Below, one piece after another: positions 13,301 to 16,300 of a DNA stretch of 64,000 nt; the stretch's first letter is position 1, and each line of letters begins with the position of its first letter. Made by a program: the position numbers. The DNA comes from Escherichia coli (GTDB lineage: Bacteria > Pseudomonadota > Gammaproteobacteria > Enterobacterales > Enterobacteriaceae): NCBI RefSeq assembly GCF_030013205.1, contig NZ_CP122648.1, one strand, 5' to 3'.

Positions 13301-16300
13301 CCAGATGTAAACAGGTCGGATGCCGCGTGGCATCCGACCTTTTGCCAGTTCGTCAATATTACCCATTTACAAAATCGTCTCTTCCGTCAAAATCCGGCGC
13401 GCGCCTAAAAAATGGTCCTGCCAGAAAGGTTCAGCTAACCGACTTACCCGTATGGTTTCCCCGGTGCGCGGCGACTCAATAAACTGTCCATCGCCCAGAT
13501 ACACGCCCATATGGTCGGCAATCTCGCGGCTGTGGATATGAAAAAACAGCAAATCTCCCCGGCGCAGGTCGTTATTCGCCACAATGGTTGCCCGGCGATA
13601 GTGATACATCTCATTAGCCGTGCGTGGGAGCTTCGCCTCGAGGATCTTGTTGTAGGCATAAAAAACCAACCCGCTACAGTCGAAGCCTTGATCGGGCCGC
13701 GTGCCGCCCCAGACGTAAGGCTTGCCAAGCTGCTGCTCCAGGCGGTGAATCGCCACTTCGGTGATGTTGTGTAGATGGTCGCTGCTTAAGAAATGGTTGT
13801 TCTCCGCCAGCGCCTGCCAGCGTCTGTCACTTGCCTTGAGCGGCGCAGGAAACCATTCTGGATGCTGTTTTATCTGTTCGCGGTTGTGCTGGCGCAGCGC
13901 CTTTCTGCTTTCGGCATTGCCTTCCACAATATAGCTGGCCTGTTTTTTCAGATGGGTTTGGTACTGTTTTAATAAACGCGCACGGTTTTGCATCCGCTGG
14001 CGGGCGGCGTAGCTGAAAGAGATATGTGATGTGGTGGCGCTGGCGAGTAAAGGGAGCAAAACGCATAACGAAAACACGCCTGGATGCAGAAATCTGCCGA
14101 GCAAGAACGAAGACATGAAGGACATAAACCGGCTGAATGAAGGTGAGAATTTTAAAAGACCAGAGGAGTAAACGGGATTATTAATTGCTTATTTGCATAT
14201 TACTATTGAGGTTTCATAATCTTAGGAAATAAATGATACATGCGCTTTTCGGACTATTGAAAACTGCCCCTGTGCTAAATTTGTAAACCCTGCGCCGACA
14301 GGCTTGCGTAAAACTCTTTTGGTGATAATGTGAGCCTTCCCAATCCAGACTATTCCGATTTGGGATCCATTTTGCCGTCCTGGCGTGTGTAACCGTTTTA
14401 TCAAGGAATAAGCAGTATGCGTAAAATCGCATTAATTCTTGCGATGTTGTTGATCCCGTGCGTTTCGTTTGCCGGTTTGCTGGGCAGCAGTAGCTCGACC
14501 ACGCCAGTGAGCAAAGAGTATAAGCAGCAGTTGATGGGATCCCCTGTCTACATCCAGATCTTCAAGGAAGAACGTACACTCGATCTCTACGTCAAAATGG
14601 GCGAGCAATATCAACTGCTCGACAGCTATAAAATCTGTAAATATTCCGGCGGCTTAGGGCCAAAACAGCGTCAGGGCGATTTCAAAAGCCCGGAAGGGTT
14701 TTATAGCGTCCAGCGTAATCAGTTAAAACCAGACAGCCGTTACTACAAAGCGATTAATATTGGATTCCCCAATGCCTATGACCGTGCGCATGGTTATGAA
14801 GGGAAATATCTGATGATCCACGGCGATTGTGTTTCCATCGGCTGCTACGCGATGACCAATCAGGGTATTGATGAGATCTTCCAGTTCGTTACTGGTGCGC
14901 TGGTTTTTGGTCAGCCGAGCGTGCAAGTGAGTATTTACCCGTTCCGCATGACCGACGCCAATATGAAGCGCCATAAATATTCCAACTTTAAGGACTTCTG
15001 GGAGCAACTGAAACCGGGCTACGACTACTTTGAGCAAACCCGTAAGCCACCGACCGTTTCTGTGGTCAATGGCCGTTACGTGGTCAGCAAGCCGTTAAGC
15101 CACGAAGTTGTGCAACCACAGCTGGCATCAAACTACACGCTCCCCGAGGCAAAATAAGCGCCATTCGCCTGGCATAATCTTTTGCCAGGTTTCATTGCCC
15201 GTCAGCGGCTGTGTCGCAATCACCGTGACCACATCATTCGGTGTGGTCTGCGAGCTGAAGTCGATTTCCACATCCTGATCCAGCAACGTTGCCACGCCAA
15301 ACGGCGCGCGGCGGGTGATCCAGTGTAAATTAGTCGAGCAATACGCCATTACATAGCGCCCGTCAGAAAGCAGCATGTTGAAAACGCCCTTCTGCCGCAG
15401 TTCATCCGCCAGTGAGGCGATATATTTAAACACTGCCGCCATGTTGCCCGGTGTGCGCGGGTAACGCTGCGTTAATTTATGCAGGAGCCAGCAGAAGGCT
15501 TTTTCGCTGTCGGTTTCACCGACCGGGCGGAAGTTGCCGGTTTCCAGTGATTTGTATCCCGTCAGTTGTCCGTTATGGGCATAAGTCCAGTTACGCCCCC
15601 ATAACTCGCGGGTAAACGGGTGAGTATTTTCCAGCGCCACCTCGCCCCGATTCGCCTGGCGAATATGAGCCACCACCGAACAGGATTTTATCGGGTAGTC
15701 CTGGACAAGTTTGGCGATGGGGGAATTAAAGCTGGGTTGCGGATCTTTAAATGTGCGACAGCCTTTACCTTCGTAAAAGGTAATGCCCCAGCCATCTTTA
15801 TGTGGCCCGGTTCCACCACCACGCTGTACAAGTCCGGTGAAACTAAAGCAGATATCGGTAGGGACGTTGGCGCTCATCCCGAGCAATTCGCACATAGGTA
15901 ACCTCCACAACAGCGGGAGCGCATGGCCCCCGGCGAAGATTGATTTAAGTATTTTCAGGTCGGATGCGGCGTAAACGCATTATTCGGCCTACGCCAGACT
16001 TACTTAACCATCTCTTTTTCAATTAACTGGATCAGGATATGGATCACTTTAATGTGGATCTCCTGAATGCGGTCGGCATAACCAAAGTGCGGTACGCGAA
16101 TTTCGATATCCGCTGTGCCAGCCATTTTACCGCCGTCTTTACCGGTCAGGGTGATCACTTTCATCCCCTTCTCACGCGCCGCCGCGATCGCTTTGATCAC
16201 GTTTGCAGAGTTACCGGAGGTGGAGATCCCCAGTAGTACATCGCCTTCGCGACCTACCGCTTCAACGTAACGGGAGAAAATATCGTTGAAACCAAAATCG

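What the first reader, a model, noticed from the sequence alone, without database searches (positions are those of the whole stretch)
14126..14416. No dinJ-yafQ module between yafL and yafK
Only 291 bp separate the divergent yafL and yafK starts. From memory, K-12 has the dinJ-yafQ toxin-antitoxin pair at this position (about 540 bp of coding sequence). The small ORFs called here (14214-14432, 14222-14404) are on the wrong strand and bear no resemblance to DinJ or YafQ.
Basis: partly seen in the sequence, partly recalled or inferred. Interest (0 to 1): 0.3.

Follow-up and report, generated by a model that had tools for sequence, protein, structure and literature searches.

The report
Ancestral yafL–dpaA spacer lacking dinJ-yafQ
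This E. coli strain has no dinJ-yafQ toxin-antitoxin pair between yafL and yafK (dpaA); this is the original, never-occupied state of the site, it is shared by about 38% of complete E. coli genomes, and it is already described in the literature, so it is ordinary.

Summary
yafL (13367-14116, minus strand) and dpaA/yafK (14417-15157, plus strand) are divergent neighbours separated by 300 bp, or 291 bp if the non-conserved upstream ATG is used. No DinJ- or YafQ-like sequence occurs in the interval or anywhere in the 64-kb window.

The difference from K-12 is a replacement, not a clean indel. Window 14045-14276 (232 bp) stands where K-12 has 838 bp: yafQ, dinJ, the dinJ promoter region and the first 24 codons of yafL.

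The 232-bp version is the ancestral one. It aligns end to end with another E. coli, an unnamed Escherichia species and E. albertii. Its YafL signal peptide also matches that of Citrobacter.

Among 5426 complete E. coli genomes, 2083 carry this empty-site form and 3340 carry dinJ-yafQ, so the two sets are nearly complementary. The window matches porcine O139:H1-type strains (phylogroup D). A published phylogenomic survey places dinJ-yafQ in the E/B1/A lineage and in phylogroup F only, which fits.

The two antisense ORFs are spurious.

Verdict: a known presence/absence polymorphism, correctly read by the first stage, of low interest. The only modest extra is that the K-12 cassette also replaced the YafL signal peptide and the upstream regulatory DNA.

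The parts
13367..14116 (-). yafL, an NlpC/P60 (C40) peptidase of 249 aa with the ancestral-type signal peptide MSSFLLGRFLHPGVFSLCVLLPLL-ASATT
   Evidence: RefSeq annotation of the identical sequence. Pfam NLPC_P60, E = 2.5e-33. The N-terminus matches E. albertii, other Escherichia and Citrobacter, not K-12.
14045..14276 (.). The 232-bp ancestral segment (yafL codons 1-24 plus 160 bp of spacer) that stands where K-12 has the 838-bp dinJ-yafQ cassette
   Evidence: Sharp loss of identity to K-12 at 14044/14045 and 14276/14277. The segment aligns with L003, L004 and L005 in one continuous match. It is found at 80% coverage or more in 2083 of 5426 genomes.
14192..14220 (+). Sigma-70-like site TTTGCA-17-CATAAT pointing toward dpaA, inside a block that is nearly identical in the four Escherichia empty-site sequences
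   Evidence: Consensus scan (2 sites found against 1.0 expected, so weak evidence). Conservation is seen in alignment A2. Function is inferred only.
14277..14416 (+). The 140 bp upstream of dpaA, shared by empty and occupied haplotypes and conserved as far as Citrobacter; probably the dpaA promoter or leader
   Evidence: 99% identical to K-12. Long invariant runs occur across Escherichia and Citrobacter.
14417..15157 (+). dpaA (yafK), a YkuD-fold peptidoglycan meso-DAP protein amidase of 246 aa
   Evidence: RefSeq annotation. Pfam YkuD. 98% identical to K-12 at the DNA level.
14214..14432 (-). Spurious antisense ORFs (14214-14432 and 14222-14404)
   Evidence: No Pfam match. Stop codons interrupt both frames in L003, L004, L005 and Citrobacter.

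Best explanation
The yafL-dpaA spacer in this window is the ancestral, unoccupied form of a chromosomal site. In another part of the E. coli population (K-12, O157:H7 and most A/B1/E/F strains) the same site received the dinJ-yafQ type II toxin-antitoxin cassette. Nothing was lost here. The strain belongs to a porcine phylogroup-D lineage that never received the cassette. The acquisition in the other lineage was one replacement event with fixed borders: 838 bp of incoming DNA displaced 232 bp of resident DNA. The incoming DNA comprised a new yafL 5' end, an AT-rich spacer, the LexA-box-bearing dinJ promoter, dinJ and yafQ. The event left the 140 bp directly upstream of dpaA intact. In this strain yafL and dpaA are therefore expressed divergently from the original spacer. 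There is no YafQ ribosome-dependent mRNA interferase, no DinJ repressor and no SOS box at this locus. Shown: the absence of the module, the break points, the homology to outgroups and the population frequencies. Inferred: the direction of the event (a gain elsewhere) and the use of promoters within the spacer.
For: Break points lie at window 14044/14045 and 14276/14277 against K-12. The region aligns continuously with E. coli L003 (90.9%) and E. albertii L005 (89.5%), and with Escherichia sp. L004 in the alignment. The YafL N-terminus here has the same length, start codon and 'PG..SLCV.L' core as in about ten Citrobacter/Phytobacter loci where yafL sits next to dpaA without any toxin-antitoxin pair. 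The K-12-type N-terminus is seen only together with the cassette. Of the 80 dpaA loci retrieved from genome contigs, only L006 has DinJ/YafQ within 5 kb (K-12, fetched separately, also has it), and L006 has the same borders as K-12. All cassette-bearing hits listed span 2387-2397 bp for the same query, consistent with a single event. Counts: dinJ-yafQ in 3340 genomes and the empty-site form in 2083 of 5426, which are nearly complementary. No DinJ/YafQ similarity was found in the window, and no CTG-N10-CAG box in the interval. The window's first 25 kb are 100% identical to swine strains including O139:H1. O139:H1 ST1 is phylogroup D (PMC11052496). PMC6896753 reports yafQ-dinJ in the E/B1/A lineage and phylogroup F only, as an acquisition.
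Against: One non-coli Escherichia genome (L006) carries the cassette, so presence is not strictly confined to one E. coli clade. Recombination could move either allele, which makes the history of the gain less simple than one vertical event. The first 72 nt of yafL in the two haplotypes are 44% identical in register (shuffle p about 0.01). The K-12 5' end may therefore be a very diverged yafL homologue rather than foreign DNA, and its donor was not identified. Whether this particular genome carries a distant RelB/DinJ-YafQ-family paralogue elsewhere, for example on a plasmid (relatives of about 68% identity exist on plasmids), could not be checked, because only 64 kb are available.
Confidence: 0.93

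Rival explanations
1. A secondary loss: an ancestor of this lineage carried dinJ-yafQ as K-12 does, and the module was later deleted.
For: Toxin-antitoxin modules are known to decay and be lost. The cassette also occurs in one non-coli Escherichia genome (L006), so it could in principle be old.
Against: A deletion cannot recreate 232 bp that are homologous to E. albertii and Citrobacter, including a 24-residue signal peptide of the outgroup type. No fragment of the K-12 cassette is detectable. A loss by allelic replacement with an empty-site allele from another strain cannot be told apart from never having had the module, but it would leave the same ancestral allele in place.
Confidence: 0.05
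2. The interval hides an unrecognised, highly diverged small-gene module, for example the antisense ORFs at 14214-14432 and 14222-14404 acting as a different toxin-antitoxin pair or small protein.
For: Two ORFs of 60 and 72 aa are present.
Against: They overlap each other in different frames on one strand. They have no Pfam match and carry in-frame stops in every other Escherichia and Citrobacter sequence examined, even though the DNA is conserved. Their conservation therefore follows the dpaA upstream DNA, not a reading frame. Rfam found nothing.
Confidence: 0.01
3. An assembly or sequencing artefact collapsed the region.
For: None.
Against: The same arrangement is present in 2083 complete genomes from many laboratories and in other species.
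Confidence: 0.01

Closest known systems
The E. coli K-12 yafL-dinJ-yafQ-dpaA locus (b0227-b0224)
   Same: The flanking genes and their orientation are the same. yafL from codon 25 onward is 93% identical, and dpaA with its 140-bp upstream region is 98-99% identical.
   Different: K-12 has 838 bp where the window has 232 bp. That K-12 segment holds dinJ, yafQ, the LexA-box-bearing dinJ promoter, an AT-rich spacer (32% G+C) and a different YafL N-terminus, MSLPSIPSFVLSGLLLICLPFSSF.
Empty-site yafL-dpaA alleles of other E. coli, Escherichia sp. E1V33 and E. albertii
   Same: The architecture is the same and homology is continuous across the spacer. The signal-peptide type and the conserved block around 14163-14233 are shared.
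   Different: The window allele lacks about 11-12 bp near 14234 that those alleles carry. Matching lengths are 1790-1791 against 1801-1803 bp. Identity across the region is 89.5-91% for L003 and L005.
The published phylogroup distribution of dinJ-yafQ (Gonzalez-Alba et al. 2019, PMC6896753; Fiedoruk et al. 2015, seen only as a citation)
   Same: The survey reports the module as acquired in the E/B1/A lineage and in phylogroup F, hence absent from D, G and B2. The window belongs to a phylogroup-D-type porcine lineage.
   Different: As far as was read, the paper works at gene presence/absence level. It does not describe the break points or the replaced yafL 5' end.

Membership tests
DinJ-YafQ type II toxin-antitoxin module (RelB/DinJ antitoxin plus RelE/YafQ toxin) | Two small adjacent genes, antitoxin first, on the dpaA (+) strand between yafL and dpaA | tested here: not met
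   No plus-strand ORF of 40 aa or more lies in 14117-14416. The only ORFs there are antisense and not conserved.
DinJ-YafQ type II toxin-antitoxin module (RelB/DinJ antitoxin plus RelE/YafQ toxin) | Sequence similarity to DinJ or YafQ, at protein or DNA level | tested here: not met
   tblastn of K-12 DinJ and YafQ against all 64 kb gave a best E of 0.29 and nothing in the interval. blastn of the K-12 cassette segment gave only 12-28-base chance matches. Pfam found nothing for the small ORFs.
DinJ-YafQ type II toxin-antitoxin module (RelB/DinJ antitoxin plus RelE/YafQ toxin) | A LexA-type box (CTG-N10-CAG) in the promoter, as upstream of K-12 dinJ | tested here: not met
   The pattern search found 27 sites in the window and none between 10070 and 18601.
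Ancestral (empty-site) yafL-dpaA haplotype of Escherichia | Continuous homology across the spacer to empty-site alleles of other Escherichia species | tested here: met
   A single blastn match covers window 13368-15200 against L003 (90.9%) and L005 E. albertii (89.5%); see also alignment A2.
Ancestral (empty-site) yafL-dpaA haplotype of Escherichia | An outgroup-type YafL signal peptide with the same start codon and length | tested here: met
   The window has MSSFLLGRFLHPGVFSLCVLL. E. albertii has MFLFSRDRLLCLSVFSLSLLL and Citrobacter has MSFVSAPRRFLPGLLSLCVVL, whereas K-12 has MSLPSIPSFVLSGLLLICLPF.
HicAB type II toxin-antitoxin module (neighbouring slot, 12683-13310) | HicA_toxin and HicB Pfam domains in two adjacent, overlapping genes | tested here: met
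   PF07927, 30.4 bits against a cut-off of 27. PF05534, 40.5 bits against a cut-off of 21. RefSeq names them the same way. Activity was not tested.

The most novel reading that the evidence does not exclude
Acquisition of dinJ-yafQ in the K-12-type lineage was not a neutral insertion between genes. It exchanged the YafL signal peptide for one without a basic N-region and removed the ancestral DNA upstream of both yafL and dpaA, including the conserved promoter-like block at 14163-14233. The two common E. coli haplotypes would then differ in export or expression of the cell-wall hydrolase YafL. They would also differ in whether dpaA (Lpp-peptidoglycan detachment) is fed by its own upstream promoter or by read-through from an SOS- and DinJ-controlled promoter. 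The window carries the unmodified reference state for testing this.
Probability: 0.25. Interest if true: 0.3.

Novelty: already known. Interest (0 to 1): 0.08.

Why it matters
It matters little on its own. It confirms that a much-studied K-12 toxin-antitoxin module is accessory and that its absence is the ancestral state.

It also adds a caution for work on K-12 deletion mutants. Removing dinJ-yafQ from K-12 does not recreate the natural empty site, because the natural site also has a different yafL 5' end and different DNA upstream of dpaA.

Tried and rejected
- **Search for hidden DinJ/YafQ:** tblastn and short-word blastn across the whole window gave only noise.
- **Rfam scan of 12500-15300 at E ≤ 1:** only a chance miRNA hit inside dpaA.
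- **Promoter/terminator scan:** the count was not clearly above shuffled expectation, so it supports no firm promoter call.
- **Search for the donor of the K-12 cassette among plasmids:** this found only RelB/DinJ-YafQ relatives of about 68% identity that cover the dinJ promoter, dinJ and yafQ. None covers the yafL 5' end or the AT-rich spacer, so the donor remains unknown.
- **In-register comparison of the two yafL 5' ends:** 32 of 72 identical, shuffle p about 0.01. This is too weak to decide between remote homology and compositional similarity.
- **Check of this genome for an ectopic copy:** not possible with only 64 kb. The near-complementary counts limit genomes that have both an empty site and an ectopic dinJ-yafQ copy to a few per cent at most.

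Full report
**What is in the window.** The region is E. coli. From left to right it holds a partial lfhA (the ORF called at 10839-12578), a hicA/hicB-like pair (12683-13310, +), yafL (13367-14116, -), dpaA/yafK (14417-15157, +), yafJ (-), gmhA (-) and fadE (+). The yafL-dpaA stretch is 100% identical to strain CFSAN018748. The first 25 kb of the window are 100% identical to a set of swine isolates: K_EC180, several ETEC strains and O139:H1 W13-16/P15-25. O139:H1 ST1 edema-disease strains are typed as phylogroup D (PMC11052496).

**Check of the observation.** In the window yafL and dpaA are direct divergent neighbours. The spacer is 291 bp if yafL starts at the ATG at 14125. It is 300 bp if yafL starts at 14116, which is the RefSeq start and the only ATG conserved in E. 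albertii and Citrobacter. tblastn of K-12 DinJ and YafQ against all 64 kb gave nothing better than E = 0.29 and nothing in the interval. blastn with 7-base words of the K-12 cassette segment gave only chance matches of 12-28 bases. There is no LexA-type CTG-N10-CAG box in the interval and no Rfam match. They are interrupted by stop codons in the homologous DNA of other Escherichia and of Citrobacter, so they are not genes.

**Anatomy of the difference.** Identity to K-12 is perfect up to window 14044 and collapses at 14045. It resumes at 14277 and stays at 98-99% through dpaA and yafJ. So 232 bp in the window correspond to 838 bp in K-12 (L001 5947-6784). That K-12 segment runs from 15 bp past the yafQ stop, through yafQ, dinJ and the 209-bp AT-rich dinJ-yafL spacer (32% G+C), to the first 24 codons of yafL. 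The polymorphism is therefore a replacement, and the YafL N-terminus differs:
- Window: MSSFLLGRFLHPGVFSLCVLLPLL|ASATT
- K-12: MSLPSIPSFVLSGLLLICLPFSSF|ASATT

**Which state is ancestral.** A scan of one genome per species for DpaA returned 80 loci, and I classified each by tblastn.
- E. coli SCPM-O-B-8794 (L003), Escherichia sp. E1V33 (L004) and E. albertii (L005) have yafL next to dpaA without the module.
- About ten Citrobacter/Phytobacter loci also have yafL next to dpaA without it.
- Only L006 (Escherichia sp. MOD1-EC7003) has DinJ/YafQ, with exactly the K-12 borders.
- The window aligns with L003 and L005 in one continuous match across the whole spacer, at 90.9% and 89.5%. Alignment A2 shows the 232-bp segment is homologous in L003, L004 and L005.
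- The window's YafL signal peptide has the same start, length and 'PG..SLCV.L' core as Citrobacter. The K-12 type occurs only with the cassette.

The window therefore carries the ancestral, never-occupied site, and the K-12 form is a gain. The uniform span of cassette-bearing matches (2387-2397 bp among the hits listed) and the identical borders in L006 point to a single insertion or replacement event that later spread.

**Frequency.** Among 5426 complete E. coli genomes, the dinJ-yafQ DNA is present in 3340. The empty-site junction (window 14020-14310, 80% coverage or more) is present in 2083. The sum is 5423, so these are two alternative alleles of one site. Ectopic copies in empty-site genomes must be rare; 12 of the 3350 dinJ-yafQ places are on plasmids. 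This matches the published statement that yafQ-dinJ is present in all genomes of the E/B1/A lineage and only in phylogroup F of the F/G/B2 lineage, and is treated there as an acquisition (PMC6896753).

**How the site most likely works here.** The 140 bp upstream of dpaA (14277-14416) are shared by both haplotypes and are conserved as far as Citrobacter. They probably hold the dpaA leader or promoter. A further promoter-like site, TTTGCA-17-CATAAT at 14192-14220, lies in a block that is nearly identical in the four Escherichia empty-site sequences. This site is absent from K-12-type strains. A published table, citing RegulonDB, lists yafK as probably co-transcribed with dinJ-yafQ and without a promoter of its own (PMC5120126). 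Empty-site strains must express dpaA without the dinJ promoter, so regulation may differ between haplotypes. This is inference only, and the scan result is no stronger than chance expectation.

**Origin of the cassette.** This is a side issue. Plasmids of Citrobacter, Klebsiella, Enterobacter, Yersinia and E. coli carry RelB/DinJ-YafQ modules about 68% identical to K-12 across the promoter, dinJ and yafQ. None carries the yafL 5' end or the AT-rich spacer. The two yafL 5' ends are 44% identical in register (p about 0.01 by shuffling), which does not settle whether the K-12 end is a remote yafL homologue.

**Verdict.** The observation and the interpretation are both right. The feature is an ordinary, common and already published presence/absence polymorphism, and the window holds the ancestral allele. 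Interest is low. The one detail possibly not stated in the literature I could read is that the K-12 cassette replaced the YafL signal peptide and the resident upstream DNA.

Noticed in passing
window 12683-13310 (+): A HicA/HicB-like toxin-antitoxin pair (Pfam HicA_toxin and HicB, overlapping genes) fills the lfhA-yafL spacer, where K-12 and the Escherichia outgroup loci L003-L006 have rayT (yafM). The segment is present in 1369-1479 of 5426 complete genomes, including O103:H2 12009. yafL is therefore flanked on both sides by variable slots, and this strain has a toxin-antitoxin pair on the other side of yafL instead.
   Followed up: partly
window 13368-14052 compared with 14277-15993: Between the window and K-12, yafL is clearly more diverged (93.3%) than the dpaA-yafJ side (98.3%). 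The differences are spread evenly along yafL rather than concentrated near the junction. YafL protein identity to the other Escherichia loci is only 89-96%.
   Followed up: partly
window about 14234: The window's empty-site allele lacks about 11-12 bp (AATAAATCCGC-like) that L003, L004, L005 and many E. coli empty-site genomes carry. Matching lengths are 1790-1791 against 1801-1803 bp.
   Followed up: no
NZ_CP006027.1 (O145:H28 RM13514) and NZ_CP172816.1 (BS-01): Some empty-site alleles are unusually diverged from the window: 92.1% over yafL-dpaA in O145:H28 and 83.8% over the junction in BS-01. O157:H7 carries the cassette. This hints at imported alleles.
   Followed up: no
L001 6713-6784 (K-12 yafL 5' end) and L006: The K-12-type YafL N-terminus (MSLPSIPSFVLSG...) has no basic residue before the hydrophobic core. 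In L006 the K-12 start codon is replaced and the frame stays open further upstream (MHDQPLLRISLPS...).
   Followed up: no
window 1-25000: CFSAN018748, although identical over yafL-dpaA, covers only 91% of the first 25 kb, in 6 pieces. The nearest non-swine relatives cover 91-97% in 4-7 pieces. The variable parts are annotated as RHS and type VI secretion Vgr genes. The window is therefore from a K_EC180- or O139:H1-like strain rather than from CFSAN018748.
   Followed up: no
window 10055-10070: A CTG-N10-CAG site (CTGGTAAAGTATACAG) lies close to where the alignment with CFSAN018748 places the start of dinB, so it may be the dinB SOS box. CTG-N10-CAG sites are about twice as frequent in the window as in shuffles, 27 against 14.9.
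   Followed up: no
window 10839-12578 and upstream: lfhA is annotated as N-terminally truncated, with lafU next to it, in the identical CFSAN018748 sequence. K-12 likewise has lfhA and lafU as pseudogenes.
   Followed up: no
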